Assembly: GCA_000934665.2 (NCBI GenBank) | Contig: JYFJ02004329.1 | Coordinates: 1-33,147, forward strand | Length of the DNA stretch: 33,147 nt | Direction: 5' to 3' | From: Catajapyx aquilonaris | Lineage: Eukaryota | Shown: piece after piece, positions 4,716-29,700 of the stretch | Layout of the letters: every line of letters starts with the position of its first letter | Position numbering within the stretch: the first letter of the stretch is position 1 | Translations under genes and position numbers: made by a program | The notes under the pieces: generated by a model | Seen by the model: the letters and a program-made list of their open reading frames with translations, nothing else | The model's database searches: none | Told to the model about the DNA's origin: nothing

Positions 4716-7700
4716 TCAGTCTTGATCTAATGTTATCATCAGAACCTGCAAGCAACAATACCGATCATTGTTCTATTCGGCTATTAACTAAAAGAGAAAT
4801 GTAATAACAAATTTCTACAACTTATTGATGCCTTTCTACCCTTCCATCACAGTCTGATTTGTATCGTATACACTCTGAAGTGCAGTCCACAAGCATTGCA
4901 CACCAGCTTGCCTTAGTTCCCCTGCCATTGGAATGCGGTACTTGTTTTGCAGTTGGAGCAGCGCAATGTTTTTCCCTGTTGTTGCAAGCACACAGGATAA
5001 TCTTTTTCCATTTCATTACAAGACTTTTTTTGACCTACCAACTCTATGGATTAAGCTGTTGGTGTACGTACAGTACTACGGCACTGCATTTTAAAAATTA
5101 TCATTACATTAACCTTGCTGGCAACACATAAAAGGGAAAATGCAATTCTAGAATATCTTGGGGAAGCCAGCATCCCTGCAGTGAGCACAATCCTACACTG
5201 ACAGGAAATATCATCAGTGGTATCGAACCCTCACCCTCAAGTAGCTTATTTTCATTAGTGTGTTCAGTAATTTCTCCTCACCTTCGTTCCGTCATTCCTC
5301 CTTCCATCTGAGTCCTGATTTGGTGGATTCATCTGACTCTTGGAGAGGAGGTGGGGTCGAATGTATCTGATCCAGTACCACACTGTGGTGGTGCTGAGAC
5401 AGAATTTCCTGGCAGTTGCTTCCAGGTTGTGACGACACGAGGAATCTCCAAACTCGAATGCGTCCAGCACCTTCCTCTTCAAGTCCATCGACTGGGTGAG
5501 GGACCCAGAGGGTTCCGCTTCCCTCTGGGGAGGCTGAACGGGAAGAGGAAAAAAAAGTAATTTATTAATCACATAAGTTTGCAGTTGGCAAGTATCCGAA
5601 TCCTTCCTGCATATAACTCTGCAGCATGTTCAATGTTAATCCTTCAGAGTGGTTAGCAAACCTTCTTTTGCATTATAAGCCGTGACTTTGGATCAGTTAC
5701 ATTTAAATGTTATCACATTTAATGAGCTGCAAATGTTAGGTGGAATATGTGCATCATTCTATTGTCTTGCAATCTGCATTTTGCACCCCCATCACCGAAT
5801 AATATGATGATTCAGTTTCTTACCATTGTTTCATCGCTTGTTCTTTCCTCAGCTTTTCGCCTTGGTTGGCACGTCTGACTTTGGGCTGGGGAGGCCAGGA
5901 GATGTGGTCGGAGGAGCTTCACCCAACCCCACACTGTCACTTGTGGTAATCCAAACTTCCTTGCAGTTGACCTCATGCTGTGACGACACTTGGAATCACC
6001 AAACTCGTAGGCATCCATCACTTTCTTCTTGAAATCCAGTGACTTGCGTCCTCTCACTCGCCCTGAAGTAGGCTGCACAGGTGAGGGAAGAGACAAGATT
6101 GTTTCTCACTAATGAGGCACTTGTTGGACCAAGACATTTTAAAAATGTAGTGAGGAGGAACGTCGAGTACGCTGATGGCCGGATAGGCAGCTAAGTGTTT
6201 ATTACAACATCACAGTATCCTTGGACCGTCACCTGAAGAGGACCACTGGTCCCTGCCAACTCTTGCTTTATTACCTTCTTTCCTGCTCCCTTCTGTTTCA
6301 ATCCATCATCAGGCAAGGTGGATCCATGTTCCCCATCATCAGGCGGGAAGACATCCGAATTGGCATTAACACATCTCGTCTCCTTCTGCAACCAAGCATC
6401 AATAACACGTGAGGATTTTGATTGATTTGCATCCGAAGCATGACTTCATGAATTCTGCAGGCAGCCTCAGATAGAAAGTCTGCAGGTTTCAATATACTTC
6501 CTCAATACACTCGACTACACAACCCACAATAAGTGCCCAGCTTCAGCTTATTGTTTTCAATGGAAGAGATTGGTGCAAAAACTGGATATAAGGCCACATT
6601 TGGCCGAAGATGACTTATGGGTGGTGCTGCCCACGTGGGGCCATTCTGCATCTTTTGGTAAAAAAATCAGGTCTGTGAGGCCATCCACTGAGGAAGTACA
6701 GACCTTCCCGAAATTTTATTAGGACCACCCCACATCCAAAGGTTTTTAATTTCTACCGGCCCCTTTGACAAAGTTTGTCAAAGCGGCCAGTCCAAACCAA
6801 ATCTCTTCATGTTCGTGACAAACACAAACAAACAATGACATCATACGTTTGGCGAAGAAGTCATGCCTGAATGTGACATGCATTGATGTAAGTCATTAAA
6901 GTGGAGCAGGACGTCTGAACAGAGTGATGAGGTGTCTGATAATGAATGATGTGATGATTTTGTAACACTAAATATGCCTATAACTCAGAAAAAAAGTTTG
7001 TTGATGTTCATAGCATACACAAATATATTTTATTTGGACATGTCTGGTTCTCTCATCCGGTGCAAAAACAAGACATGCCCACATTATATTGTACTGTAGA
7101 ATGTGTAATACGCATCGTACAAACTTCATATTTTGGTGCGGATTGACTTTGGAATCATCCTATTCAACAAAAAAAATATCCTACGAAAAACTCTTTAAAT
7201 TTGTCAGAAATCCAGTTTTTATTTGTTTACTTGAAGTGCTGTACTCAAAAATCACGTTTATTTATCAGTTACCTCATTGAGTGTAACATCCTCTTTGCTG
7301 AATGATCCGATATACCTTTTTCCTATTCCCTAACATCCGATGAGCATCTTCCTTTCGTCTGCAGGCACGGAGGTGAGGTCGCATGGATTTCACCCAATGC
7401 CTCACAGTCCATGTGCTTACTCCAAACGTATTTGCAGTTGCTCCTACATTGTAACGACATTTGGAATGGTCAAACTCGTACGCATCTAGCACCTTTTCCC
7501 TGAAAGCCAGTGAGTAGGTGCGTTTCTTGTTCACAGAGATTGGCTGCAATAGAAAAATGTCAGTGATCAGTGATATGGTAGGCCTGTACCATATATATTT
7601 TTAAAGGCATAATTCCTACCAGTTAATGATGGGAAATGAGACTTACCATTGGTTTTGGCTCCTTGTCCTTTGCACTGGACATCTTGAGGTCATCAGGAAG

Positions 7701-9457
7701 GATCTTGTCCTCACTGCCTCCCTGGCTAATAAGTTCCGTCATCTTGACCAGAGCAACCAGTTTTGACTTCCTTACTCTCGCTGGCACCTCCTCCTAACAA
7801 AGTACGGATTTTACTTTAACCTTGCAAAGGGAAATGCAACTGTGGAATATCACAACAAGTCATTCCCGAAGAAGTGTGTTCTTACCTTTCGCAAACTGAG
7901 ATTTGAATATCCTCGAGATGCTTTTGAATTGCTTGTACCGTACTCATCTTTTTCATCGTTCATCTGAAGAGGAACAGTTATAAAATTTGTCTCGTGCTGC
8001 AAAATTTCCTTTTCACCTTTCTTTGCGTCCTCTTCCTTCCTGATCTCTTGTTGGGAGTGGTGTGTTTGTGTGCAGGTTCCACACCAGCCTGGATGTCACT
8101 CCTGTCATCCAAGTCGAAGTCACTCCCACACGTGTCTTCAACTACTGTTTCCATCACTTCAGGCTGCTCTGCTCTTATACCTTGGACTCCCTGAAATACC
8201 ACAATGATGCTTAAAATAGGTTCAGTGAACATTTCTGTGCATTTGCATTGCCCTAGCATTTCTTGACATCAAAAACTATGCAGCTCCAGTTCAATGTGTT
8301 GCTGGATTAGCTTCAGCTCACATCACAATAATTATTTCTAATGAGGTTGTTTACTCTACATTCAGTTGAGTTCCATAATGTTCATTAATAATTAGGGTTC
8401 ATATTTACACAGGCAAGTGACACGAACACACAGTATATTGAATGGTTGCCAATTTTGTGTGTCTGTAATTAACTGATGACCCTTACGTCCGCACGTGCTC
8501 CGTTCCGTCCAGGCCAGCCGTCAATGGAAATAAATTCGAATGAAGGTTCAGAGTCTCCTGGCAGGCCACCATCACCACCACAGTCCAGGCTGGAGCCTTC
8601 CTTCCTCTCAGGCGACTGCACTTCCTGAAACCAGGCAGCAACTGTTACGACATCTCTATGCAAAGAAGGGCATGGCCTAAACACTGCAGGATTAATCCCA
8701 CGTGGGCCATTGCCGGGAGATTTGTTGCATGAAGCTGCGCAACTGCAAGAGATAGTTGCTCACCACAATGACTTGCTCAGAGATTCCTTGTCATGAGTGA
8801 TGGCCACCCCCTGTGGCAATTTATTGTTCCAGGACACAGAAGGATGGGCCTAGTGCATCCAGCCTTCAATCTTTTTTGCTGTAACAGTACTCTTTGTATT
8901 CCTGCACAAATCTTTGTGAAATCCATTCAATAATACCCCAATTCTTCAACATGACTGCTTGTCTAACGCATACACTTGAATTCGGGATCTCAATAATTAT
9001 TGTGACGCCTGGCGTGTTGATCCTCCCATTCCGTTGATGATAATAACGGGTTCAAGGATGAAAGCCCGACCCTTTGGATATCGGACTTACAAAACTGGGC
9101 CACAACCCTCCATGCATTACATGCAATAGCTCTACAGAACCCTGTGGTCCCAAGGAATGTGGTGGGCCATCAAGCAGGAAAATGGGATTAAACCTGCTGG
9201 CCGTGTACCTGATCCCCTGTACGTCTCTCGTCCGTCTCTGTCTCCTCCGTTGTTACGACCACCCTTCCACCGGTCCATCCTTCCTCTTCCTCCTCCTGAG
9301 GCTCGACCTTCACAATGTCTGAAGGGCCATGGATGAACTGGTGGGCCCTCAGCTGGATCCTGGTCCTGAAGGTGGCGTCCAGGCAGTACACGCACCTGAA
9401 CTGCCCTTCTTCAGTGACCATGCGGCTTGGTCCATGCTGTGGCTGGTGGAGGCTCAT
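4716..9457 (-). CDS. Gene A: C2H2 zinc finger + 3 Brinker-type HTH domains (~550 aa if all exons are joined)
   Basis: Predicted exons, all AG/GT bounded and phase 0: 9457-9209 (MSLHQP..CVYCLDATFRTRIQLRAHQFIH), 8624-8487, 8190-8017, 7963-7886, 7793-7647, 7543-7316 (HTH), 6385-6275, [6232-6191 stop exon], 6072-5824 (HTH), 5533-5282 (HTH), 4745-4716 (tentative last exon VLMITLDQD*). A 5'UTR exon donor GTGAGT is at 9547-9542. Confidence 0.8.
5282..5533 (-). CDS. Gene A HTH exon A3 (constant terminal Brinker-type domain)
   Basis: 252 nt, cag|CCT..AAG|gtgagg; SMDLKRKVLDAFEFGDSSCRHNLEATARKFCLSTTTVWYWIR. Confidence 0.85.
5824..6072 (-). CDS. Gene A HTH exon A2
   Basis: 249 nt, cag|CCT..ATG|gtaaga; SLDFKKKVMDAYEFGDSKCRHSMRSTARKFGLPQVTVWGWVK. 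Confidence 0.85.
7316..7543 (-). CDS. Gene A HTH exon A1
   Basis: 228 nt, cag|CCA..AAG|gtatat; YSLAFREKVLDAYEFDHSKCRYNVGATANTFGVSTWTVRHWVK. Confidence 0.85.
9209..9457 (-). CDS. Gene A first coding exon, single C2H2 zinc finger
   Basis: F-x-C-x2-C-x4-F-x5-L-x2-H-x3-H pattern (FRCVYCLDATFRTRIQLRAHQFIH), then VKVEP and an acidic run. Acceptor at 9463, donor CAG|gtacac. Confidence 0.85.
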
Positions 9458-10183
9458 CTTCTCTGCAGGAAGAAGAGGCCTGTGCACATCCAGAACAATG
9501 TATTCAGATGCACATGAGAAGGCAGCGCAGTTGGTTCACACACTCACCAGACAAGAAGAAGACTCTTCAGGTCCAGTGGAGTAGTAAGATGAGATAAGAG
9601 AAAAGGGGGGAAAAAATAGATAAGATAAAGGAAAGTAAAGAGATGCAGATATACCCAGAAATAGCGCAACATATCCCTCCAAATTAAACTGATAGGTCAT
9701 CCACCGATATCAAGGGAAAGGAGGTTCAAAAACAGGCCATCAGCTTCCTCTGCCTTTCAGCTTAACCGCCAGTTATGCCACTATTAATGGCCTAGCCAAT
9801 CTCACTGCCGTCGTTTAAGGCCCCCCCACTTAAATTATTATTACAGAAAACGCTTATTATGACCAACCTTGGTAAAAAGGTTATTGCTCATTGAACCTCT
9901 TCACAAGTTGTCCACAACGCAAATGATGATGACAGTCGGTGTTTACGACAAACCTAACCCCTTCTCAAGAACGGTTTTGATTATTACATAATTATGCAGT
10001 ATATGAAAGTAAAATCATACTACATTTATTTTGTTCCACACGTGTACAGAGAGAGGAGGGATTCAATCAAGTACTCAGGAAAATAAATAAAAAAAACAGT
10101 TGGTTTGCATAGCAAGAATGACACTTACTGGACAAGTGAGCATTTCAGCACAAGTATACCCTTGTCAGGAAGCATCCAAGTCT

Positions 10184-10498
10184 CAACCTCGAAAAAGGTC
10201 TTATGAGGTCCCGGCTGGTTCGCCAGCGACGGTACCGTACTCTCTTCCTCGAGCGGTCCTCGGACCTGACTCGCATTTCTTGGTCGGATGGGGTGCTTGG
10301 GAGAATATCCCACCCCCGTCCCTGGGTTGGACCCGGCATTGCAGTACAGCCGGGGCCAGCCCTCCTCTCCCCCACCCTTCTCACCCACCCCCTACCTTGC
10401 AATCCCACACCTTCCTCTCCTACCCCCGGCTGCCAAGGCTCGACTCAGACAGAGCCATACAAGCTGGGTAACCCTTCCTACCAACCAACCAACCAACC
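10184..10498 (+). mobile_element. 5'-truncated non-LTR retroposon (LINE 3' end or SINE) with (CCAA)n tail
   Basis: 14-bp TSD AAGCATCCAAGTCT at 10170-10183 and 10499-10512; ends in CCAA repeats. The paralogous empty site is at ~11485-11498. Confidence 0.8.
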
Positions 10499-11751
10499 AA
10501 GCATCCAAGTCTTTGTCCTCATAATTAACATCACATCATGATCTGCATGAAATACAAAGGCACGACAGTGGTACAACATTGAACGAGAAACTAACATTGG
10601 AATGAGCAATCAGAAGGGTTCGCACCTTGTTAATATGGTCGACATGCATTTGGTTTATATTGATTCATTCTGTAAAAGGGCTGCACAACTTTTGCGTATA
10701 CTACACATCTAACAATGGTTACCAGCCTTATTTTGTCACGAACCTATCTACCAACCTTTCTTCGACCTGGTGACCTGTATGACCGCTGTTCCCCCAGCCA
10801 TATCTCCATCTTTTTACAAAAAATGTTAATTACCCAATGTTCAACCAGGTACGTTGAACTTCCCCCCAAAATTTCCCTTCTTTGCATTCATTTTTTTCTT
10901 CTCTTTCTTCTTTATTTTTGTCTTTTTCCTGGCCTTCCCTGCAACCCTTAAAAACATGTTGGCGACACAAGGGTTGGGAACCAGTCTAATACGCTAACTC
11001 TTCCAGTGGTTCCATCATTTAAGATTCCCCAGATTAGAAACATGGGCCAATTGTATGGTCCAATTTCGGTCCATGGCACTCTGGAGAACGGACGTTCCAC
11101 AGGCAGTCAAACGACTGGGGTAATTGGGCGCAGTCATCGTCTGTTGATGAATCAGTTTTTCTTTCTTTCCTTTGGACACAGCCCTGGTGGCAGGGCCTCT
11201 CTGGCCGACAACCTGTTTTCATCTCTCTTGTTCGCTGCCTCTTCTCACCATTACAATTATGACGTTTCCCCGCTCCCTTGTCAGAGGGGTTCAAAAAGCC
11301 AATCACAGTTGACCCATTGTGCAAGGAGAAAATTCCATGACTAGGCATGCATTGTTGCACAGGTGTGCAGGCAGAAGAGGCATTCAGGAGTCACATGTAC
11401 GCAGGAAATGCAAAGCAACAGTTTGCAGAGCAAGAGTGACATTTACTGGACATGAAAGCATTTCAGTACACAGCTGCCTTCAGGAAGCATCCAAGTCTTT
11501 GCTCTCGAGATGAAAATAACAGGATCTTTATATAACACAAAGGCATGCAAATGGTAGTACGGTACAATATTGAGCAATAAACGAGACTGGAGTGAGCGAT
11601 CAGTACCTCACTTGCTCCTTGTCAATTCCAGCGTGACTAACTACCACATGTGGCTTGTCTCCTTATGTACGTATGATGCATCACTGGGAAATTATACACG
11701 CAGAATGTGCTGCCAACAAAGACTTCCACCTCATCATGGACTCCTTTACCT

Positions 11752-14700
11752 TCAGTCTTGATGTAGTATCGTCATCAGACCCTGCAAGAAACAACATGGA
11801 TCACTGCTGCATACATGTATAACAATAACTTTCTATAACTTATTGATGACATTCTACCCTTCCATCACAGTCCGTCATTGGAATGCGGTACTTGTTTTGC
11901 AGTTGGAGCAGTGCAATGTTATTCCCTGTTGTTGCAAGCACACAGGGAAATCCTTTTCCATGTCATTACAGGACATTTTTTCGACCTACCAACTCTATTC
12001 ATTAAGCTGTTGGTGTACGTGTAGTACTAGGGCACTGCATTTTAAAAATTATCATTACACATATAAAAGGGCAAAAGCAATTCTAGAATATCTTGGTGAA
12101 GCCAGCACCATTGCAGCTTGCTTGCTTGCAAGTACTTGAGCACAATCCTACCTACACTTGCAGGAAATATCTCCAGTGGTATCGAACCATCACCCTTAAG
12201 TACAGCTTATTATCATTAGTGTGTTCAGTAATTTCTCTTCACCTTTGTTCCGTCATTCCTCCTTCCAGCAGAGTCCTGATTTGGTGGATTCATCTGACTA
12301 TTGGGGAGGAGGTGGGGTCGAATGTATCTGATCCAGTACCACACTGTGGTGGTGCTGAGACAGAATTTCCTGGCAGTTGCTTCCAGGTTGTGACGACAAG
12401 AGGAATCTCCAAACTCAAATGCGTCCAGCACCTTCCTCTTCAAGTCCATCGACTGGGAGAGGGACCCAGAGGGTTCCGCTTCCTTCTGGGGAGGCTGAAA
12501 GGGGAAGGGAAAAAATAATAATTCAAATATCACACATATGTGCAGTTTGCAACTATCCAAATCCTTTCTGCATATAGAGCATGTTCAATGTGAATTCTTC
12601 AGTGGTTAGCGAACCTTCTTTTGCATGATAAGCAGTAACTTTGGATCAGTTACATTTAAATGTTATCACACTTATTAGCTGCAAATTTTAGGTGGATTAT
12701 ATGTGTTTATTATCTGGAAATCTTCATTTTGCTCCTCCATGTCTTTTGTAACAGAGAGTACGCTGATGGCCGGATATGCAGCTAAGAGTTAATGGTAATA
12801 TCATTTCCTCCTTGGACCATCATCTGAAGAGGATCACTTTCTCTCGTTCCTCCCTCCTACAAAATCTGGCCTCACCTTCTCTCCTGTTCCCTTCCGTTTT
12901 GCTCCCTCAGCAGGCAACGTGGACCTGGATGCCTGTTCCCCATCTGGTGCGAGGTCACCTGAGTTGGCATTACCATATCTGGTCTTCTTCTGGAACCAAC
13001 CATCATGAACACATGAGTTATTTGAAGATTAAGTTACAGCTGAAGCATGGTTTCAAGCTCACTTCAGGCAGGTTCAAATAGAAAGTCAGCCAGGAGAGAT
13101 ACGAAAACATGTCGGTAAGGGTTCACTTTAGCCCCGCCAAAACAGTGCAGGTGTCTATACATTTACTTAGTCTACTCAACGAGCTAAGTTGACTGGCACT
13201 ATTCCTAGGGTGGAGAAACCTTTACTTCAAGAGTAATTATTGAGTTGTGAAATTGCACTTAATTAACAATCAAAGAATGACAAGAAACCGGTGTTCCTTT
13301 GTTGAAGCTGTTTACTCCTGTTGTTGCATGAGGGCATCCCCATTGTAATTTGAAAAGTAATTTGCAGGCTGTGCATCCACAACATTGCTGTCGGTCTTGT
13401 GGACAGTGTTGGGTAGGATCTAGATCCCAAACGCGTGATCTATGATCTGATCTAGGTACTTTTAAAACTGAGTATCTGTACTTGTATCTAGATACTTTTT
13501 TTTATGGGATCTACGATCTAGAGATCTGAATTTTCCAGATCATGTCTTTTTTTCGAAATGTTCCTGATGCTCAAGTCATCTTCAAAAGATTATGTCAAGT
13601 CTAGGTAAAAAAAGGGGACCGAAGATGGCAAGTCAATATAATTATGTCAAAATTTGCAAGTTTATATTATTTTTTAAATCACGGAATGTATTTTTAAAAA
13701 GAACTGTGTAGGCCTGGCCTATTAATTGGATAAGCTTGTGTTTTTCAATTATACAAGTTCTCGTCTATTATGTAATTCATGCTTGTCAAAATATAGACTA
13801 ATATGTATGGGACATGCTGGGAATTTCATGATTTATTGACTAGGCCTGTATGTTTCAACTATTTTTATGCGTGTGAAATTATTCTATGTACTTATTCTAA
13901 TATTTTCAATTGCAAGGTCATTATTATTGACACATTCATCAATGGCGGATCTTTTCTCAGTGTTTTCTCTTGCAATTTAGCAATATGCCCCTGGGGCGGG
14001 TGGCAGACAATATTCAAATTCCCTGTATCCCTCTTCACTTGAACTAAACTGCTAATTGACGTAAATCACTTTAGGTTGTGCCGTGATCTGAAATCTGATC
14101 TAGATCCTTTAGAATTGAGAGATCTGAACTGGGATCTAGGTACGAAAACGCTGAAGTATCTGGGATCTGATCTAGATACATTTTTGGGTGATCTTTCCCA
14201 ACACTGCTTGTGGAGCAGTAGATGTTGCCTGAGGTGGCTCTGGCAAGGCCACAACAACGTTTGTTGACTGATTGTTAATTCATTGCAATTTCAGAAGTCC
14301 AAAACTTTTGAACCAAAGGTTTCTGCAACATACGAATAGAATCATTCGACGCAGCTCATCAAGTGGATTCCGGAAATCTATAGAAACGTGTAATAAAATA
14401 TAAAATAATTTATTTGGACATGTCTGGTTCTCATTCAGTGCTAAAACAAGACTTTGTCCCCATTATACTTCACTGCAGAATGTGTAATCGTACAAACGTC
14501 ATATTCCAGTGCATGTTGACTTTGGTATCATCCTATCCAACAAAAAATTATCATTAGAAACATTTTTGAAATTTTCCGGGAATTCAGTTTTTCCTTGTTT
14601 TCTCGAAAGTAACAAAACTGGACTTATCCTGTTTTTCCACCAAACCCTTCAATTCTTACCAGTGGTCCCTTCTTCTTGGCACTGGATGTCTTGCGGTCCT

Positions 14701-20700: not shown

Positions 20701-23700
20701 GTAACAAAACTGGACTTATCCTCTTATCCCACCAAACCCTTCAATTCTTACCAGTTGTCCCTTCTTCTTGGCACTGGATGTCTTGCGGTCCTCACTGCCT
20801 GCCTGACTCTGTCCCATCACGTTAACCCGAGCAACCAGTTTCGATCTGCTTGCTCTCGACGGCACCTAAACATGACAGGATTTTACTCAAATTTGCAAGG
20901 GGGAATGCAACTTTGCAATCACAAGCACTCCTCACTGTTGTGTTTACCTACATTTTGCAACCTTGGTTTTGAAACATCTCGAGATGATTTAGAATTTGTT
21001 GCGCTGCAGTCATCTTCTTGGACTCTCACCTGAAAAGGAATACATAGTTTAAAATCCTTTGTCTTGTCACAAACTCTCATCTGACCTTTCTTTGTGCTCT
21101 CTTCCTTCCTGCTCTCTCGTTGGGAATGGCGTGTTTGGGGCCAGGTTTCACACCAGTCGTAACTTCACCCCTCTTGTCCAAGTCGGAGTCACTGCCACAT
21201 GTCTCTTCCTGGAAACAGACAACAATGAAGTGAGGCCTTTGAAAAGGAATTGCGGCCCATCTCACAACCAAATTCTCTTCCACAAGAAACACTTCCTTAG
21301 CTGAGAGACTTGAACTTGTTCAAACTGAATTCCTCATAGGGGTTAGCATGTTTTTCAAATGTATAAACAGTATGAACCAGTCACATGGTTATCAGAAATA
21401 TTAGTTGTCAATGTTAGGTCAAACACGCACGTCCCTTGTCAATCTGGGAATCCGTATTTTTTTTTCTGCCATCACTGAGTAATCTTAAGAGTTCATTTCT
21501 TACCCTTGCTTTGTCATTTGCTCTTTCCTCAGCGTCTTGTCTTGGTTGGTGCATCTGACCTTGGGCTGAAAGGCCATGGAGATGGGGTCGGAGCTGCTTC
21601 AGCCATATCCACAACAATCCCTGGCTTAGGCCAAACTTCCTTGCAGTTGCGCTCTGGTTGTGACGACATGGGGAATCACCAAACTCATAGGCATCCAGAA
21701 CTTTATTTTTAAAGTCCAGAGAGTGATTTGATCTCTGTCTTTTCACACTCTCCTTGATTTCCTGTGGAGGTGGTGGAAAATTCAAGGTGTATATTTAGTG
21801 TATGTAATCTGACTAGCAGCCCAAAAGAAGTCAGAAATGTATGGGTGAGAAGTGTGAGCCCAGAGGGATTCAAAAACATGTACTGTACAGTAGAACCCCG
21901 ATTATCCTGGTTCTTCTCTATAACGAAAATAATATAATCTTTAAAAATAAATCCCTTGTGGGCATATCAGTGGCTTCATTATTGTGGTATTAAATTACTT
22001 TGCTTTCAGTCTGCCCTCTTTGGCATTAAAAATTGCTCACATTCTGGGTGCCTTTTCTATTGCTTTGAACTGCCCCCCTAACTGCCCAAGAACAGACTTT
22101 GAATGGATTCTCGTCTCATTCATGCCAAACACAACCTGCCAGCATCCCTTCTTACTCTTAGGGAATCAAAGGAGCAAAGGGCAACCTGCATTTCATGGAA
22201 TTGGCATTTCTGCAAGTCCCAGCAGAAGTGTGGTGATTTAGGAAAATAATAGTTCATTAACCCCCTCATTTCATGACTCGTCCTTTCACGAGTGCCTCGC
22301 CTTGATTGGTACGTACCTGACGCTGGGCTGAACGGGCAAGGCGACTTTGTCGGAGAAACTTCACCCACTGCCACACTGTTATTGGTGGCAAGCCAAACTT
22401 CCTTGCAGTTTCAGTGACATTGTGACGACATTTCGAATCACCAGACTGGTAGGCTTCCAGCACTTCCTTCTTGAAATCCAGTGAATAAAAAGGTGACTTG
22501 CGGATTTCCAGTTTCCCTGACTTTGGCTGCGGAAGAGGTGGAAAACAAACATCTTGAACATAATATATTGTCAATGCAATCTCGCTCTTTCTTTCTTTCC
22601 AGCACTGATGGGGCATGTGGCAGATTTATTAATCACTACCCGTGATCTTGAATCCATCTTAATAATCTGATGAGGCTTACCTTTTTCCTATTCCCTAACA
22701 TCTGATGAGCATCTTCCTTTGGTTGGCAGGCATGGAGGTGAGGTCGCATGGTTTTCATCCAACGCCTCACAGCACTTTCCTGTATTCCAAACTTTCTTGC
22801 AGTTGCAGCCACATTGTGATGACACTTGGAATCACCAAACTCGTACTCATCAAGCACCTCTTCCCTGAAGGGCAGTGAGTGGATGTGTCTTTTGTGGGTT
22901 GTCCCTTTTCCAGAGGTTGGCTGCAACAGATATTTATAAAAGTAGAAGAAATCTGACATCGTCAGTCATCAAGTTAACATCATTGCCCAAGGTGCTGGCC
23001 TGAGGCATCGTTTTTTTTTAAAAAATGTAATTTCTTCCTGTTCATGATGGAAAACGAATTCGAACATATTTCGAATCATTACACCTCAACTGTGCAAGAT
23101 CAATTATTTATAATGATTGTCCCAAACCCTAACTACATCAACACTCTCGCAACCAAGGCAACAGTGCATAAACTCGAAATTCGTACAAAGTACAGCCCTT
23201 TGGTACAGCCAATGTGAGTTCAAGACACTGAACGAAGTACCGAGACCACGTAGAAATTGTTATAACACATGGGGGCCAATCAGCGCGAAGCAGCCGCGTC
23301 ACATCACCCAGATGACGAAATCTCCCGCTCATTATGAAAAGAGGCACGCTGCATGGGGAAACAGGCTTTGTGCCTGCGATTAGAGACGGATTACTCGAGT
23401 TACGTGCCAGTACACGGCAGATGCTGGAGGACAGGGATGTGCCCAGTACTCACCCATCACTGTCGCCCACCACCGGAGTGCAAACGCCCGGGTTGGACCC
23501 ACTTCCTTGGCGCGCCTGACCCCACCGCTTCCCTTTCCTTCTAGTCCGACATTTTTTTTTTTGACAGAATGGGGAACTAGCCTTGGTCTGGGATTTGGGA
23601 TTTTTGTTCATAACTAGCTAGCCCATGCCCGTAAACATACATTCCATCACTCTGTTGCATCAAAATGACATTACTGGATAAATTACGGCACATTTAAAAG

Positions 23701-26700
23701 TGCCTTCAAAATTGGCGGGAAAAACGCGGCGGCCAATCGAAAGGGTACACCGAAATGCCTGGTTGACTGCGAGATATGAGGAATTTGGCTTTGAATTAAC
23801 CGCGGACACGACGGAAAGCATTCGCAAGGCGGCTGTAGGCCATCGACGTGGAGAAGGGGGGCCTTCATGTGCCGAATTCGGGTGACAGATAATTCCGACC
23901 TGGTGGCATCACTGCCACATACAAAGCGGCTTGAGCGACCTGGAATAAATACGCGCCCCGGCCGCTATCTTGCTCACGGAATGGGACGGTTGCTAACAAC
24001 AGCGAAGTATTTTACAACAATGATGGGGCGCGTTCTATAACATCATTTTTGCGTTCATTTCACTTCGCGTGACGTCAATATTTTCCAGGCAAACAGTGAC
24101 GTCACCATTTGCCTACGAAAAAACGCCAATATCTCCGGAACTGAAACTGATATCTTAAAACGGAATATGCCAAAAAAATCCAAAAAATATGGGCGAATTT
24201 ATTATGTAGTTTCCAAAATGAAGGCTACTTCCCCATTATGCACTTTGAGCCTAAATCGATTTTTTACCGCGTTCTGGGCACCTTGTGGAGTTTTGTCAGG
24301 GTTAGACTAACTACCAAAAGTTTCGGGTAATTTTTGTACAGCCACGCAAAGTTAGTGGAAATCGCGTGTTTGCGGCGTATCTGATGGGGTGCGGTAGTCA
24401 TTTCGGGGTCATTTCCTAAGTTTTCAGGGTTGAGGAACCCAATTCTGACATTTCCAAATCCCTCAGAGGCCAACTTTAGTTGTGCAGAGAGCATGATTTC
24501 CGATCGGAGCTGGCTGTCGTCTACCGACATCCACACCTTCTGCGATGATGATGAAATTAAGATGCTTGCACATTTTACCGAGTTATGGTGTTTCAATGAC
24601 CTCATATGGAGTAAATCAAACAGTAACTGACCATCCCCTATCATATTGCATGATTTTGGAATTGCCCCGTATGGAGCAATTCCAACGCTTGCTGGGAACA
24701 ATGGTTACAATGTTTTCTCAGCTATTTTCCTTTTAACATAAAATAAGTAACGAGCTGAGTAGAGAAGAGCTTCTTCCTAGGGATGTATGCACCGTACTCC
24801 CGATTATTCGTGGTTCGGATAATCTGGGCATCGCCAAAACAAAATAAAACAAAACAAGTCCGGAAAATGTCGATATTTCTGGCATACAGAGAAATTTAAC
24901 AGACTTTTGTAGAAGGCAAACTAAAGATCTATGGAAAGTTTTATAATTTTTATTTAATCTGATTTAAAGCAGCATAGACTACAGTAGTAGACATTAAAAG
25001 AGTGTAAGTTGCATCAAAAACCTGTGAATGGCTCATTGTTACGATTCTATGACCATTTTCCAATTATTTTCTGATTATCCGCTGACACCTGTGGTTTGCA
25101 AATATGACTTGTGGTAGAGAGACACAGTAGTCAATAACATTAAAAAAAAAACGTCAGTGACATAGCAAAAGAGGTGGATGGCAGATGCCGGTAGACGACA
25201 GCCAGCTCCAATAGGAACTCATGCTCTCCGCACAACGAAAGTTGGCCTCCGAGGGTTTCGGAAATGTCAGATTTGAGTTCCTCGACCTTGAAAACTTAGG
25301 AAATGACATCGCAATGACTACCGCACCTCATCAGATACGCCCCAAACACTTGATTTTCACTTACGCCGTTTTGTGCCAACCTCTCCAGGCCCTCCAGGAA
25401 TCGATTTTTGGTGATATGATAAGCACTCTCTCCCAGACAAATGGTCACAGTATTCTTGTCAACAATGTCCTTGAAATGGTGTTGGTGACAGGATGTTTCC
25501 ATGGATCCGGGTTAAGATGATGCCACACCCGCCGTACCACCTCGGACTGGCTCCCAGTGACTTTTACCTGTTCGGATCCATGGAAACACCCCTTCCCCAT
25601 TGCCATTTCGAGGACATTGTTGAACAGGAAGCCTTGTCCAGGAGTGGACAAGCCGAGCCACCAAAAAGTGGTGCCTGGAGGGGTGTGGCAGCATAACACC
25701 CGTGGTGCCAGTGCATTAGGCTCCAGGAGGAATCTCTCGATAATGAGTGCCCACCTGACCTGTGAGAGCCCTGTATTTTTGGCAAAGAAATAAACTCGTC
25801 CTGTTGGCATAGACTTGGCATTTCAGCAAGTCCCAACAAACGTATGATAATTAAAAAAATATTTCCTTTACCCTCATTTCATGAGATTCATGATTGCCTC
25901 GTCTTGATTTGTAGGCCTGACTCTGGCCTGATCGGGCAAGGAGACGGGGCAGGAGAAACTTGACCCAACCCCGCACTGTTGGCATTGGTAATCCGAACTT
26001 CCTTGCAGTTGCCCTCATGTTGTGACAACATGAGGAATCACCAGACTCGTAGGCCTCCAGTACTTTTTTCTTGAAATCCAGGGAGTATTGAGATGACGTG
26101 CGGATATGCAGATTGCTGGAGTTTGGCTGCAAAAGAGGTGGAAAACAAACATCTCAGTATATGTCTTTCCAACATTGATCTCTTTCTTTGCAGTACTCAA
26201 GCATGTTGCAGATTTACTAATTATCCTGAGTGATGTTGAGTCCTCATCCTTTTTGTTTAATAATCTGATGAGGCTTACCTTCGTCCCATTTCTTGACATC
26301 TGATGACCGTGTTCCTTTGGTTGGCAGGCAAGGAGGTGAGGTCGCATGGCTTTCACCCAATACCTCAGACCAAATGTGCTTAGTCCAAACTTCCTTGCAG
26401 TTGCATATGCATTGTGACGACATTTGGAATTGTCAAACTCGTAGACATCAAGCACCTTGTTCTTGAAGGCCAGTGAGTAGCTGTTTTGCTTACGAGTTGG
26501 CCCTTTTCCAGAAGTCTGCTGCAACGGATATTTCAAAGTAGAGGATATATGACCTCATCTGCTAAAGGCAGGCCTGTAGCATATTTTGTAATAGCATAAT
26601 TTCTTCCTGTTCATGATGGAAAACGAATTCGAACATATTTCAAATTGTTACACCTCAACTGTGCAAGATCAACTATTTATAATGATTGTTCCAAACCGGA

Positions 26701-29700
26701 ACTACATCAACAGTCTCGCAACCAAGGCAACAGTGCATAAACTCGAAATTCGAACAAAGTACAGCCAATGTGAGTTCAAAACACTGAACGAAGCACTGAG
26801 ACCACGTAGAAATGTTATAACACATGGGGGCCAATCAGCGCGAAGCACCCACCACCGGAGGGCAAACGCCCGGGTTGGACCCACTTCCTTGGCGCGGCTC
26901 ACCCTGCCACTTGCCCGTCCTTCCAGTCTGACATTATTTGTTTTTGACAGAATTATGCACTTTGAGCCTAAATCGATTTTTAGCGATTTCTGGGCACCTT
27001 GTGGAGTTTTGTCTGGGTTAGACTAACTACCAAAAGTTTTGGGTAATTTTTGTACAGCCACGCAAAGTTAGTGGAAATCGCGTGTTTGGGGCGTATCTGA
27101 TGAGGTGCGGTAGTCATTTCGGGGTCATCTCCTAAGTTTTCAGGGTCAAGGAACTCAATTCTGACATTTCCAAATCCCTCAGAGGCCAACTTTCGTTGTG
27201 CGGAGTGCATGAGTTCCGATCGGAGCTGGCTGTCGTCTACCTCCATCCACGCATTCTGCGATGATTATAAAATTAAGACATTTGCACATTTTACAGAGTT
27301 ATGGTGTTTCAATGACCTCCTCTGGAGTCAATCAAACAGTAACTGACCATTCCCTATCGTATTGCATGCGGTTGGAATTGCCCCGTATGGAGCAACCACG
27401 GGTGTGCCAACCTCTCCAGGCCCTCCAGGAACCTATTTTTGGTGATATGACAAGCACCCTCTCCCAGACAAATGGTCACAGCATTTTTGTCAACAATGCC
27501 CTTGAAATGGTGTTGGTGACGGGATTTTTCCATGGATCCCGGTTTAGATGAGTCCCCATCCTTTTTTGTTTCATAATCTGATGAGGCTTACCTTTGTCCC
27601 ATTCCTTGACATCCGATGACCATGTTCCTTTGGTTGGCAGGCAAGGAGGTGAGGTCGCATGGATCTCAACCAAAGCCTCACAGCCCATTCACTTATTCCA
27701 AACTTCTTTCCAGTTGCAGTTGCATTGTGACGACATTTGGAATTGCCAAACTCGTAGACATCAAGCACCTTATTCATGAAATCAGCCAGCGAGTGGGTGC
27801 GTGCCTTATGGGTTGTCCCCTTTCCAGAGGTCGGCTGCAACGGATATTTAAAAGTAGAGGATATATGACCTCATCTGCTCAAGGCAGGCATGGCGCATAT
27901 TTTTTAACAGCATAATTTCTTCCTATTCATAACAGAAAATGAGGCTTACCATTGATTTTGGTCCCTTGCCCTTTGCACTGGACGTCTTGAGGTCATCGGC
28001 TAGTATCGTGTCCTCACTGCCTGCCTGGCTCTGTTTCGTCATCTTGACCCACGCAAGCCGCTTCGATTTCCTTACTCTTGCTGGCACCTCCTCCTAAACA
28101 AGCGGGGATTTTACTTTAACATTGCAAAGGGAAATGCAACTGTGTGGAATCACAACAAGTCATTCCCGATGAGGTGTGTTCTTACATTTTGCAAACGGAG
28201 ATTTGAAACTTCTCCAGATGCTTTTGACTTTCTTGTACTGTACTCATCTTCTTGGACAGTCACCTGAAAAGGAATAGTTTCAATTTTGTCTCTTACTACA
28301 CACTCGCATCTCACCTTTCTTTGCGTCCTCTTCCTTCCTGATCTCTCGTTGGGAGTGGTGTGTTTGGAGGAAGGTTCCACACCAGCCTGGATTTCACTCC
28401 TGTCGTCCAAGTCGGAGTCACTCCCACATGTGTCTGCAACTATTGTTTCCATCACTTCAGGCTGCTCTGCTCTTACACCTTGGATTCCCTGAAATACCAC
28501 AATGACGCTTAAAATAGGTTCAGTGAACATTTCTCTGCTTTTGCATTGCCCTAGCATTTCTTGAGATTAACAACTATGCAGTTCCAGTTCAATGTGTTGC
28601 TGGATTAGCTTCAGCTCACATCACAATAATTATTTCTAATGAGGTTGTTTACTCTACATTCCATAATGTTCCATAATGTTCCATAATGTTCATTAATAAT
28701 TAGGGTTCATATTTACACAGGCAAGGGACACGGACACACAGTATATTGAAGGGTTGCCAATTTTGTGTGTCTGTAATTAACTGATGACCCTTACTTGATC
28801 CGCACTTGCCCTGTTCCTTCCAGGCCAGTCGTCAATGGAAATGAATTCGAATGAAGGTTCAGCGTCTCCTGGCAGGCCACCATCACCACCACAGTCCAGG
28901 CTGGAGCCTTCCTTCCTCTCAGGCGACTGCACTTCCTGAAACCAGGCAGCAACGGTTATCTATCAACAGTCTCTACGCAAAGAAGGCCATGGCCTAAACA
29001 CTGCAGAATAATCACACGTGGCCCAATACCGGGAGATTTGTTGCATGCAGTTGCGCAACAGCAAGAGGTAGTTGCTCACCACAATGACTAGCTCAGAGAT
29101 TCCTTGTCCTGAGAGGCACAGTGGCCATCCCCCCGTGTTGCAATTTATTGTTCCAGGACACAGAAGTGACGATGGGCCTTCAATCTGTTTTTCACTCTAA
29201 CAGTACTCTTTGTATTTCTCCACAAATCCTTGCGAAATCCATTCAATAATACCCCAACATTTAAACATGACCAGCTTGTGTGATTCACCCACTTGAACTG
29301 GAATCTCAATTATTGTCATGGCTGAGCTGTTGATACTCCTGTTTGGGTGATGGGTTCAAGGATGAAAACCTGACCCTTTGGATATTGTACTTATGAAAAT
29401 GAGCCACAACCCTCAATACTTTCCATACTATATTTGGACAGCTCTGCAGAACCTAGTGGTGACTAGGAACAGGCAATAGTGACCTGGACACATGGTGCAC
29501 TGAAGGGTTGCCACTTTTGCGTCTCTGCCATGAAGAGACCCTTACCTCGGCATGTGCCCTGTTCCGTCCAGGCCAGCCGTCAATGGAAATGAATTCGAAT
29601 GAAGGTTCGGCGTCTCCTGGAGGGTCACCACCACCGGAGCTCAATATGGACTCTTCCTCCTTCTGGTGCGACTGATCCCCTCCTCTAGTTGGTCTCTCCT

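What the first reader, a model, noticed from the sequence alone, without database searches (positions are those of the whole stretch)
5824..27834. Hypervariable recognition helix among internal HTH cassettes (signature of diversifying selection)
Seen: the scaffold is conserved but the 7 residues between FG[LIV] and W differ in all 12 internal domains: PQVTVWG, STWTVRH, PQVTVWK, SEAAVRR, PKGTVQR, GHSTVRH, SQGLLWI, PPITVWQ, QESAVRR, PMPTVRG, STFGLRY, SEWAVRL. Recent duplicates with very similar flanks differ here by multi-nucleotide non-synonymous changes (B3 ATG-CCA..CGG-GGT vs B8 AAG-GGA..CAG-CGT; B1 SEWAVRL vs B7 GHSTVRH). Established: these positions align with Brinker's HRRQIQK recognition helix. 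Inference: specificity residues are diversifying, as in PRDM9 or KRAB-ZNF fingerprints, consistent with an arms race and a modular HTH recognition code. Caveat: several helices are poor in basic residues and may bind weakly or bind protein.
Basis: partly seen in the sequence, partly recalled or inferred. Interest (0 to 1): 0.85.

Follow-up and report, generated by a model that had tools for sequence, protein, structure and literature searches.

The report
Fast-evolving reading helix in Brinker-type arrays
An animal (reportedly arthropod) gene cluster strings together many small Brinker-type DNA-binding modules, one per exon, and the few residues at the start of each module's DNA-reading helix have changed faster than neutral DNA while the scaffold stayed fixed, much as in fast-evolving zinc-finger genes.

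Summary
The minus strand carries exactly 15 Brinker-type HTH cassettes, each a phase 0-0 exon with intact splice signals. The 12 A/B-type cassettes have 12 different heptads between FG[LIV] and W. Three C-type cassettes share STTTVWY.

The heptad aligns with Brinker's HRRQIQK (PDB 2GLO) and is the last turn residue plus the first six residues of helix 3.

In my own codon-model fits on the 12 A/B exons, heptad dN/dS is 2.3-3.2, against 0.5 for the rest of the domain and about 1.1 for the linkers. The p-value for dN/dS=1 runs from 1e-6 to 0.03, depending on how strict the null is.

In four independent recent duplicate pairs, heptad replacement divergence is 0.30 against 0.08-0.09 in homologous introns.

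Only 4 of the 7 positions are hypervariable (1, 2, 3 and 7). Others lie outside the heptad, in helix 2, later in helix 3 and in the N-terminal arm.

The arms race, the recognition code and DNA binding itself remain untested. No RNA, orthologues or whole genome were available.

The scan had already noted this family on other pieces of the same genome. I found no published description.

The parts
27592..27834 (-). Cassette Af (A-type HTH exon), heptad SEWAVRL at 27673-27693
   Evidence: Phase 0-0 exon, acceptor ccgttgcag|CCG, donor AAG|gtaagc. Pfam BrkDBD 23.7 bits. One in-frame 3-nt insertion relative to Ac.
26279..26518 (-). Cassette Ae, heptad STFGLRY at 26360-26380
   Evidence: Splice sites. 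BrkDBD 26.1 bits.
25872..26126 (-). Cassette Bf (B-type), heptad PMPTVRG at 25968-25988
   Evidence: BrkDBD 31.5 bits. Recent sister of Bc: homologous downstream intron 9.5% diverged.
22681..22920 (-). Cassette Ad, heptad QESAVRR at 22762-22782
   Evidence: BrkDBD 30.0 bits. Sister of Ab.
22317..22526 (-). Cassette Be, heptad PPITVWQ at 22368-22388
   Evidence: donor CAG|gtacgt. BrkDBD 23.3 bits, just under the 23.4 cut-off. Sister of Bb.
21504..21761 (-). Cassette Bd, heptad SQGLLWI at 21606-21626 (the most divergent B copy)
   Evidence: BrkDBD 23.4 bits.
19462..19701 (-). Cassette Ac, heptad GHSTVRH at 19543-19563
   Evidence: BrkDBD 32.2 bits. Sister of Af: upstream intron 6.8% diverged.
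18603..18857 (-). Cassette Bc, heptad PKGTVQR at 18699-18719 (the cassette that was folded)
   Evidence: BrkDBD 34.2 bits. AlphaFold2 model with three helices, core pLDDT 88-91. Top Foldseek match 2GLO.
15703..15942 (-). Cassette Ab, heptad SEAAVRR at 15784-15804
   Evidence: BrkDBD 29.1 bits.
15330..15539 (-). Cassette Bb, heptad PQVTVWK at 15381-15401 (alternative in-frame donor at 15279)
   Evidence: BrkDBD 27.9 bits.
7316..7543 (-). Cassette Aa, heptad STWTVRH at 7397-7417
   Evidence: BrkDBD 25.3 bits.
5824..6072 (-). Cassette Ba, heptad PQVTVWG at 5926-5946
   Evidence: BrkDBD 20.5 bits, below the cut-off.
5264..5533 (-). Cassette Ca (C-type, invariant heptad STTTVWY at 5375-5395), probably the last coding exon of the downstream gene
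   Evidence: Acceptor cccgttcag|CCT. The frame runs through the candidate donor to a stop 5 codons on (..GTKVRRNY*). 0 replacements in the core against Cb and Cc, with 2-3 synonymous differences.
12225..12494 (-). Cassette Cb (STTTVWY at 12336-12356), probable last coding exon of the long middle gene
   Evidence: Exon 3.6% diverged from Ca, intron 12.6%.
31748..31972 (-). Cassette Cc (STTTVWY at 31814-31834), with a 17-nt deletion after the HTH that brings an earlier stop (..PPNQD*)
   Evidence: The HTH part is intact. It probably ends a gene whose 5' part lies beyond the window.
29453..30004 (-). ORF with candidate start (MMSLHQPQ..) and a single C2H2-like finger (FRCVYCLDATFRTRLQLRAHQFVH); probable first coding exon region of the middle gene
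   Evidence: translation. Weak Pfam zf-C2H2_4, E=0.022. Exon limits not settled.
9188..9535 (-). Paralogous ORF with candidate start (MSLHQPQ..) and the same C2H2-like finger; probable first coding exon region of the downstream gene
   Evidence: zf-C2H2_4 E=0.052. Acceptor cttcctgcag|AGAAGATG.
28315..28507 (-). Acidic/basic 'SDSDLDDR..KRSGRKRTQRK' exon-like ORF (NLS-like). Paralogues lie inside ORFs 7978-8268, 14975-15160, 20145-20426 and 21077-21319.
   Evidence: repeat families D5, D8, D14; phase-0 donors AAAG|gtgag. No Pfam family. Limits approximate.

Best explanation
The window holds part of a tandem cluster of lineage-specific genes on the minus strand. They encode poly-Brinker-type HTH proteins. 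Each gene seems to start with an exon holding a single C2H2-like finger. Acidic/NLS-like exons follow, then a run of HTH cassettes, one per symmetric (phase 0-0) exon. The cassettes come in two alternating subtypes, A and B, often as A-B pairs split by an intron of about 155 nt. Each gene ends in a conserved C-type cassette. My reading (inferred, no RNA data) is one 3-cassette gene (Aa-Ba-Ca), one 11-cassette gene (Af ... Bb-Cb), and the end of a third gene (Cc). The arrays grew by duplication of exon blocks. After duplication, the residues at the start of helix 3 (heptad positions 1, 2, 3, 7), one residue a turn later in helix 3, one at the start of helix 2 and several in the basic N-terminal arm were replaced faster than the neutral rate. 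The hydrophobic scaffold stayed under purifying selection and the linkers drifted. The most likely meaning (inferred from the Brinker-DNA structure and HTH biology generally) is that each cassette binds nucleic acid through helix 3. Selection would then have pushed paralogous cassettes towards different specificities, so the protein reads a long composite site. The invariant C cassette would supply a constant function.
For: Shown here:
- 15 of 15 cassettes are open, with polypyrimidine-AG acceptors and GT donors in phase 0. No decayed copies were found.
- There are no frameshifting indels in 945 exon nt of four recent pairs, against 7 indel events in about 1070 aligned intron nt (one short intron counted from both ends).
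- The chance of no stop codon under random substitution in those four pairs is about 0.027.
- BrkDBD is the best Pfam family for 12 of 12 A/B cassettes, and 10 of 12 reach the curated cut-off.
- The profile matches 2GLO at E=8.5e-7, with the heptad on HRRQIQK.
- The fold model has three helices, and its top PDB match is 2GLO.
- Codon models on the 12 A/B exons: omega is 2.73 for the heptad, 0.53 for the core and 1.13 for the linkers. Omega_heptad=1 is rejected at p=1.2e-6.
- With the heptad's own rate free, omega is 3.15, the relative synonymous rate is 0.87, and p=0.013.
- With multi-nucleotide-hit parameters, omega is 2.28 (p=3e-4), or 3.19 (p=0.034) with free rate.
- Parametric bootstrap: 1 of 150 null simulations reached the free-rate statistic, and 0 of 150 reached the shared-rate one.
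- The heptad has the highest omega of all sliding 7-codon windows.
- Approximate M1a versus M2a: 2dlnL=42.8; 16% of sites have omega about 4.4; 4 of the 10 sites with posterior above 0.9 lie in the heptad.
- Heptad pN is 0.30 against intron divergence of 0.081-0.093 in four independent pairs (Fisher 1e-6 to 8e-6; counting whole codons, binomial 8e-5 to 3.5e-4).
- The C cassettes have 0 core replacements.
- The arm plus HTH of every A/B cassette carries a net charge of +4 to +10.
Against: - All comparisons are between paralogous exons of one genome, on 7 codons by 12 sequences. No orthologues or polymorphism data were available.
The post-hoc column-shuffling test on four pairs is only borderline (p=0.056 and 0.08).
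- The free-rate tests would not survive a strict correction for window choice.
- In the B clade alone, omega_heptad=1.9 is not significantly above 1 once the rate is free (p=0.31).
- In the A clade the core itself runs at omega about 0.95.
- Whole-exon omega is 0.87, and exon divergence in recent pairs equals intron divergence. Overall constraint is therefore weak.
- Multi-nucleotide changes are frequent (the multi-hit model improves lnL by 18).
- A-clade heptads are incongruent with the flanks. Patch conversion could therefore violate the tree model.
- None of the 15 heptads keeps Brinker's RRQ.QK, and several variable positions hold W, F, Y, L or I. DNA binding is not shown.
- Gene models are unverified.
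Confidence: 0.6

Rival explanations
1. There is no positive selection. The start of helix 3 would simply be the least constrained, solvent-exposed part of a redundant, recently duplicated domain. The apparent dN/dS above 1 would come from multi-nucleotide mutations, short gene-conversion patches between paralogues and the small sample.
For: Whole-exon omega is 0.87 and linker omega about 1.1. Exon divergence is about equal to intron divergence in recent pairs. Multi-hit parameters are strongly supported. Af's heptad is 4 nt from Ab and 5 from Aa, but 7 from its flank sister Ac. B-clade omega_heptad is not significantly above 1 with free rate. The post-hoc window test gives p=0.056-0.08.
Against: Omega_heptad stays at 2.3-3.2 with multi-hit terms. 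The heptad's synonymous rate is not raised (relative rate 0.87, or 0.71 with multi-hit), whereas imported patches from diverged paralogues should raise it. In the B clade the heptad neighbours agree with the flanks. Heptad pN is about 3 times intron divergence. The bootstrap gives 1 of 150. Relaxation alone can reach omega=1 but not exceed it.
Confidence: 0.2
2. The variable face is not a DNA-reading surface. The cassettes would have lost Brinker's DNA contacts and would use helix 3 to bind proteins or RNA. Any diversification would then reflect changing partners rather than DNA motifs.
For: 0 of 15 heptads match [HN]RRQ[IV]QK, which is carried by 185 of the 275 motif-bearing domains in the retrieved relatives, including every one of the 57 best-scoring proteins.
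Against: The cassettes remain strongly basic (+4 to +10). They keep the T-V-x-x-W-[VL]-[KR] pattern. From my own recollection, not from a call, this pattern is common in DNA-binding transposase and paired-type HTHs. The other fast sites (start of helix 2, N-terminal arm) are the usual secondary DNA-contact regions of HTH and homeodomain folds. An NLS-like basic exon accompanies the arrays.
Confidence: 0.12
3. The array is a decaying or non-expressed relic (pseudo-exons), or its exons are used only as alternative cassettes. In that case 'one protein with 11 reading heads' would be wrong.
For: There is no RNA evidence. Overall constraint is weak. Symmetric phase 0-0 exons would allow any combination of skipping. 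Cc has a 17-nt deletion. Transposon fragments fill the introns (RVT_1 at 17080-17343; repeat families).
Against: 15 of 15 cassettes are open and no degraded copy was detected. Splice signals are conserved at all 15 acceptors. 15 per-site tests show significant purifying selection at scaffold positions. A neutral relic cannot give a local omega above 1. Alternative use of exons would not conflict with diversifying selection.
Confidence: 0.08

Closest known systems
Hexapod Brinker (brk; Pfam BrkDBD PF09607; PDB 2GLO)
   Same: The best sequence and fold match. The motif FK..VL..Y....C..N..ATARKFG[IL] is shared, and both are three-helix HTH folds. The best library hits are insect brk proteins with 2-3 DBDs.
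   Different: Canonical Brk keeps [HN]RRQ[IV]QK in helix 3 (185 of 275 domains), whereas 0 of 15 cassettes do here. Passages of bioRxiv 10.1101/2025.02.07.637038 say that brk is mostly intron-less, has at most three DBDs and is hexapod-specific. Here each domain is its own exon, there are 3 and about 11 per gene, and no CtBP or Groucho motif (P.DLS, FKPY, WRPW) was found on the gene strand near the cassettes.
KRAB-ZNF, PRDM9 and insect ZAD-ZNF arrays (named from my own knowledge, not from a call)
   Same: The evolutionary pattern is alike: clustered genes, tandem arrays of small DNA-binding modules, growth by duplication, a conserved scaffold, and dN/dS above 1 at the positions expected to read bases.
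   Different: The module is an HTH, not a C2H2 finger. There is one module per exon, not one large array exon. No KRAB, ZAD, SET or BTB effector domain was found in any of the 130 ORFs of 75 aa or more. Targets and any arms race are unknown.
Transposon-derived CENP-B/Brinker-type DBDs (pogo 'Passer' transposases, POGK, JRK)
   Same: The same HTH clan. Passages of PMC7386202 report BrkDBD in Passer transposases and POGK. A passage of PMC11601247 says human CENPB/Brinker-type TFs derive from transposons and give long motifs.
   Different: No HTH_Tnp_Tc5 and no DDE_1 domain were found anywhere in the window. The best sequence matches are brk proteins, not transposases.
Poly-Brinker-HTH clusters on other pieces of the same genome (scan notes e1-7597196, -197, -198, -202)
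   Same: These notes report the same architecture: 5-18 cassettes per gene, a variable reading helix and an invariant last HTH exon.
   Different: They concern different DNA. The index found no look-alike stretch for cassette Bc, so this is a separate, diverged cluster. Those notes are unchecked AI notes, and I tested only this window.

Membership tests
BrkDBD domain family (Pfam PF09607) | Match to the Pfam model at or above the curated cut-off (23.4 bits) | tested here: met
   10 of 12 A/B cassettes score 23.4-34.2 bits. Ba (20.5) and Be (23.3) fall below. The C cassettes score only 13.5 bits, E=0.07, so for C the feature is not met by Pfam alone.
BrkDBD domain family (Pfam PF09607) | Three-helix HTH fold superposable on the Brinker-DNA complex 2GLO | tested here: met
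   AlphaFold2 on alignment A1: helices at residues 16-28, 37-44 and 48-58; core pLDDT 88-91 (mean 70.1). Foldseek rank 1 is 2GLO: rmsd 1.2 A over 46 columns, 35% identity, prob 1.00, but E=0.029.
Brinker proper (brk orthologue) | Recognition helix [HN]RRQ[IV]QK | tested here: not met
   0 of 15 cassettes carry it, against 185 of 275 motif-bearing domains in 159 retrieved proteins, including all of P0001-P0057.
Brinker proper (brk orthologue) | Gene organisation: usually intron-less, 1-3 DBDs (as stated in passages of bioRxiv 10.1101/2025.02.07.637038) | tested here: not met
   Here there is one DBD per exon and 15 cassette exons in 33 kb.
Brinker proper (brk orthologue) | Binding of GGCGYY sites and repression of Dpp targets; CtBP/Groucho motifs | tested here: inconclusive
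   Function is not testable here. The motif scan for P.DLS, FKPY and WRPW found only 3 P.DLS matches in ORFs unrelated to the cassettes, but the gene models are incomplete.
Rapidly evolving tandem DNA-binding-module arrays (KZFP/PRDM9-like behaviour) | dN/dS above 1 focused on predicted base-contact positions, with a constrained scaffold | tested here: met
   Heptad omega is 2.3-3.2 against 0.44-0.53 for the core. Site-model sites are 39, 48, 49, 50, 54, 58 plus the N-arm. This rests on paralogues only.
Rapidly evolving tandem DNA-binding-module arrays (KZFP/PRDM9-like behaviour) | C2H2 finger modules and a KRAB, SET or ZAD effector domain | tested here: not met
   The modules are HTH. No such Pfam domain was found in 130 ORFs of 75 aa or more. 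There is only a single weak C2H2-like finger per gene.
pogo/Tigger-type transposase DBD | A second HTH (HTH_Tnp_Tc5) and a DDE_1 catalytic domain next to the BrkDBD/CENP-B_N motif | tested here: not met
   No HTH_Tnp_Tc5 or DDE_1 hit at E<=0.001 in 130 ORFs.

The most novel reading that the evidence does not exclude
These genes would be an HTH-based counterpart of KRAB zinc-finger genes. Each would be a modular array of Brinker-type reading heads, each specifying a few base pairs through helix-3 positions 1, 2, 3 and 7 (plus the arm and helix 2). The heads would be shuffled by exon-block duplication and possibly by exon choice. Together they would evolve against fast-changing genomic targets such as transposons or satellites. 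If so, there would be a decipherable residue-to-base code for a second, non-zinc-finger modular DNA reader in animals.
Probability: 0.22. Interest if true: 0.85.

Novelty: new variant of a known kind. Interest (0 to 1): 0.6.

Why it matters
Fast-evolving modular DNA readers in animals are known almost only from C2H2 zinc-finger arrays. This locus shows the same evolutionary behaviour on a different fold, the Brinker-type HTH. The recent preprint read here describes that fold as a hexapod-specific domain with one to three copies per protein and a nearly invariant reading helix. If the cassettes bind DNA, the family offers a natural series of scaffold-identical domains that differ at 4-6 positions. 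Such a series is well suited to working out how an HTH reads bases, and to asking whether genome-defence-type arms races recruit folds other than zinc fingers. It also bears on where Brinker came from.

Tried and rejected
- Word-indexed protein search with cassette Bc for longer proteins: 22 candidates, none at E<=0.001.
- Whole-genome search of the window's own assembly: no genome is held. Other family members could therefore not be fetched to look for conversion donors.
- RNA runs: none was listed for window 18400-28300. Read laying was therefore not used, and expression and splicing stay open.
- Earlier-findings look-up near the window and by sequence: nothing.
- Exhaustive HMMER search of 1.84 billion representatives with the cassette profile: 224 hits at E<=0.001 and none below 1e-30. 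The best 57 hits are Brinker-type proteins carrying canonical helices, the six looked up by name being insect records or unnamed. This architecture is therefore not represented there.
- ESM Atlas: only weak leads (score 0.90 or less) to BrkDBD, CENP-B_N and transposase-HTH clusters.
- Literature searches: 'Brinker DNA-binding domain'/'BrkDBD'; brinker + recognition helix + HTH + positive selection; tandem HTH/HTH array terms; brinker + expansion + crustacean; brinker + 2GLO; brinker + major groove + GGCGYY. None describes multi-cassette Brinker arrays with variable helices. I also found no open text listing Brinker's base contacts, so which heptad residues touch bases is inferred from helix position, not read from a paper.
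- Full gene models: the exon limits of the finger, acidic and 'K' exons could not be fixed from sequence alone.
- The pure-decay idea was rejected.
- The transposase-copy idea was rejected.

Full report
WHAT IS THERE

The window is eukaryotic DNA. Earlier notes of this scan on the same genome call it arthropod-like; I did not test that.

A six-frame scan for F[GC][LIVM]x7W gives 15 matches, all on the minus strand. Each lies in an open frame bounded by a polypyrimidine-AG acceptor and a GT donor, both in phase 0. Every cassette is therefore a symmetric exon of 210-258 nt.

The cassettes fall into three subtypes (alignment A1; tree):
- Six A-type: Aa, Ab, Ac, Ad, Ae, Af.
- Six B-type: Ba to Bf.
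- Three C-type: Ca, Cb, Cc.

A profile of the 15, run over every six-frame ORF of 15 aa or more, finds these 15 and nothing else. There are no decayed copies.

Between the cassettes lie other repeated exon-like ORFs:
- Two copies of a candidate start exon (MSLHQPQ..) with a single weak C2H2-like finger.
- Five acidic/basic 'SDSDLDDR..RKRTQRK' ORFs.
- Three 'K' ORFs.

The C exon runs through its candidate donor to a stop five codons later in Ca and Cb. In Cc a 17-nt deletion brings an earlier stop.

Taken with scan note e1-7597202 (an invariant last HTH exon; an unchecked lead), I read the window as follows:
- The end of one gene (Cc).
- One long gene: finger exon near 29.9 kb, then Af, Ae, Bf, Ad, Be, Bd, Ac, Bc, Ab, Bb, Cb.
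- One short gene: finger exon near 9.4 kb, then Aa, Ba, Ca.

This gene model is inference, because no RNA run was listed.

THE OBSERVATION

The three C cassettes share STTTVWY. The quoted codon differences are exact.

WHAT THE DOMAIN IS

BrkDBD is the best Pfam family for all 12 A/B cassettes. Scores run from 20.5 to 34.2 bits, and 10 of 12 reach the 23.4-bit cut-off. The C cassettes score only 13.5 bits.

The cassette profile matches the Brinker chain of 2GLO at E=8.5e-7. The alignment places the heptad on HRRQIQK.

An AlphaFold2 model of Bc, built with the 15-row alignment, has mean pLDDT 70.1 (core blocks 88-91). Its helices lie at residues 16-28, 37-44 and 48-58. The heptad is therefore the last turn residue plus the first six residues of helix 3.

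Foldseek ranks 2GLO first: rmsd 1.2 A over 46 columns, 35% identity, prob 1.00. The E-value is only 0.029, and no match reaches E<=0.001.

An exhaustive HMMER search of 1.84 billion representatives gives 224 hits at E<=0.001, none below 1e-30. The best 57 are two- and three-domain proteins carrying the canonical helix. Of eight looked up by name, five are top-ranked Brinker-like hits: three of these have named insect records (mayfly, damselfly, whitefly) and two are unnamed. A sixth, the wasp record (P0016), also carries the canonical helix; the remaining two, P0058 and P0081, are unnamed HTH-repeat proteins of other kinds.

In the 159 retrieved proteins, 185 of 275 motif-bearing domains carry [HN]RRQ[IV]QK. 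That includes every one of the 57 best-scoring proteins. None of the 15 cassettes here does. The part that is most conserved in canonical Brinker is thus the most variable part here.

No transposase domain (DDE_1, HTH_Tnp_Tc5) and no KRAB, ZAD or BTB domain occurs in any of the 130 ORFs of 75 aa or more. The only other hit is an RVT_1 fragment at 17080-17343.

IS THE VARIATION MORE THAN NEUTRAL?

(a) Four phylogenetically independent recent pairs: Bc/Bf, Bb/Be, Ab/Ad, Ac/Af.
- Their homologous intron flanks differ by 6.8-15.5% and their exons by 8.6-11.3%. The exons as a whole are no better conserved than the introns.
- The differences are unevenly placed. The heptad holds 20 of 84 nt differences against 71 of 861 elsewhere (Fisher 4e-5). 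It holds 14 of 28 replaced codons against 45 of 287 (8e-5).
- It is the top-ranked of all sliding 7-codon windows. A column-shuffling test of the maximum window gives p=0.056 (amino acids) and 0.08 (nucleotides).
- Heptad pN is 0.30, against intron divergence of 0.081-0.093 (Fisher 1.3e-6 to 8e-6). Counting each replaced codon once gives binomial p of 8e-5 to 3.5e-4. Against core synonymous divergence of 0.133, p=0.008.

(b) My own GY94-type likelihood code, run on the 12 A/B exons with the iqtree2 tree built without the heptad.
- Omega is 2.73 for the heptad, 0.53 for the rest of the domain and 1.13 for the linkers.
- Omega_heptad=1 is rejected at p=1.2e-6, and omega_heptad=omega_core at p=1.7e-15.
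- With the heptad's own rate free, omega is 3.15 and the relative rate 0.87, so synonymous change is not raised. Then p=0.013 against 1 and 1.2e-4 against the core.
- Adding double- and triple-hit rates improves lnL by 18. The heptad then gives 2.28 (p=3e-4), or 3.19 (p=0.034) with free rate.
- Parametric bootstrap: 1 of 150 null simulations reaches the free-rate statistic. None of 150 reaches the shared-rate statistic (maximum 7.9 against 32.7 observed).

(c) By clade.
- A only: heptad 3.65 (p=4e-5; free rate 5.7, p=0.023), with the core at 0.95.
- B only: heptad 1.94 (p=0.031; free rate p=0.31), with the core at 0.40.
- All 15: heptad 2.26 (p=2e-5; free rate p=0.039).

(d) Site models with branch lengths profiled by a scale factor.
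- Approximate M1a against M2a gives 2dlnL=42.8 (p about 5e-10). 16% of sites have omega about 4.4.
- Sites with posterior above 0.9 are columns 7, 8, 11, 13, 39, 48, 49, 50, 54 and 58.
- Four of these ten lie in the 7-column heptad (hypergeometric p=0.003).
- Per-site tests show significant purifying selection at S15, L16, F19, V23, E25, Y27, E28, C34, H36, N37, T41, K44, F45, G46 and W55.

(e) The C cassettes. Ca, Cb and Cc have 0 replacements in the core against 2-3 synonymous differences. The Ca/Cb exon differs by 3.6% against 12.6% for the intron.

REFINEMENT OF THE FINDING

Within the heptad, positions 1, 2, 3 and 7 are hypervariable. Positions 4-6 ([TAGL]-[VL]-[WRQ]) are conserved.

Comparable signals lie at three places outside the heptad:
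- One residue a turn further along helix 3 (column 58).
- The second residue of helix 2 (column 39).
- The basic N-terminal arm (columns 7-13; sliding-window omega 2.43). The alignment has gaps there, so this signal is less secure.

CAVEATS

- All tests compare paralogous exons within one genome, on very few codons. The signal is therefore divergence between duplicates, not proven ongoing selection.
- The window was chosen after inspection of the data.
- In the A clade the heptads do not follow the flank tree. Af's heptad is 4 nt from Ab and 5 from Aa, but 7 from its sister Ac. In the B clade the heptads do follow the flanks. Short-patch exchange or convergence is possible, and I could not search the rest of the genome for donors.
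- Overall constraint is weak: M0 omega is 0.87.

CODING STATUS

There are no frameshifting indels in 945 exon nt, only one in-frame 3-nt indel. The comparison is 7 indel events in about 1070 aligned intron nt, with one short intron counted from both ends. The chance that all four pairs stay free of stop codons under random substitution is about 0.027.

MECHANISM (INFERRED)

The arm plus HTH of every A/B cassette carries a net charge of +4 to +10, and NLS-like exons accompany the arrays. I therefore take the products to be nuclear nucleic-acid-binding proteins. Each cassette would dock helix 3 in a groove as Brinker does, and duplicated cassettes would have been driven to different specificities.

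A and B cassettes mostly come as pairs with a short intron and were duplicated as pairs: Ab-Bb with Ad-Be, and Ac..Bc with Af/Ae..Bf. This suggests a two-headed unit. What the targets are is unknown.

COMPARISON WITH WHAT IS KNOWN

Passages of bioRxiv 10.1101/2025.02.07.637038 state that brk is hexapod-specific and mostly intron-less, and that it has up to three DBDs. They add that non-insect hexapod homologues differ in genomic organisation. The supplements are closed, so such arrays may be shown there.

A passage of PMC4263296 reports 42 BrkDBD-encoding genes in one pufferfish, without analysing their helices. Passages of PMC7386202 and PMC11601247 tie BrkDBD/CENP-B-type domains to pogo transposons.

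Six literature searches found no description of multi-cassette Brinker arrays with variable helices.

The scan itself had already noted this family on other pieces of the same genome: e1-7597196, -197, -198 and -202. The index finds no look-alike of Bc, so this window is a separate, diverged cluster that independently shows the same pattern.

VERDICT

- Diversifying selection on the start of helix 3 is supported at moderate strength and refined.
- The arms-race and recognition-code readings are open.
- This is a new variant of a known kind of domain, behaving like zinc-finger arrays.

Noticed in passing
window 5264-5533, 12225-12494, 31748-31972 (minus strand): The three C-type cassettes are under strong purifying selection (0 core replacements, identical helix STTTVWY). 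They probably form the last coding exon of each gene. Cc has a 17-nt deletion that shortens the tail but spares the HTH.
   Followed up: partly
window 9188-9535 and 29453-30004 (minus strand): These are paralogous candidate first coding exons (MSLHQPQ..), each with a single C2H2-like finger (FRCVYCLDATFRTR.QLRAHQF.H). Pfam zf-C2H2_4 matches only weakly (E=0.02-0.05). Part of the 29.5-kb ORF (29547-29706) also repeats the 'PGD.EPSFEFISIDGWPGRN' segment found at 8488-8647 and 28799-28958.
   Followed up: partly
window 7978-8268, 14975-15160, 20145-20426, 21077-21319, 28150-28566 (minus strand): Five copies of an acidic-then-basic exon-like ORF (..CGSDSDLDDR..KRSGRKRTQRK) with phase-0 donors. The basic part looks like a nuclear localisation signal. 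No Pfam family matches.
   Followed up: partly
window 16052-17545, 23369-25041, 26584-27276, and 18091-18399 / 25372-25680 / 27403-27561: The introns are filled with repeated elements shared between duplicated blocks (repeat families D7, D9, D10, D17-D20). They include a reverse-transcriptase fragment (RVT_1, 17080-17343, plus strand).
   Followed up: no
window about 820-920 and about 31250-31290: Long trinucleotide microsatellites. They read as runs of N or I in translation, so they are AAT/ATT-type.
   Followed up: no
protein P0058 (644 aa, unnamed metagenome record): An intron-less protein with at least eight HTH-like units (5 stretches matched the cassette profile). Their helix-3 starts all differ (for example ..FGVSRNSVLSW....FGVKKTTVRRW....FGVSKDSVYKW..). 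It is another natural poly-HTH array of unknown origin.
   Followed up: no
protein P0081 (789 aa, unnamed metagenome record): This protein has eleven near-regular repeats of an HTH unit ending ..W[VI][RKH].AGH... It looks like a prokaryote-type HTH repeat protein.
   Followed up: no
window 15279-15330 and 22268-22317 (minus strand): In Bb and Be a strong donor (CAG|gtacgt) lies about 50 nt upstream of the donor position used by the other B cassettes. In Be the longer form runs into a stop. These two cassettes therefore probably carry a shortened linker.
   Followed up: no
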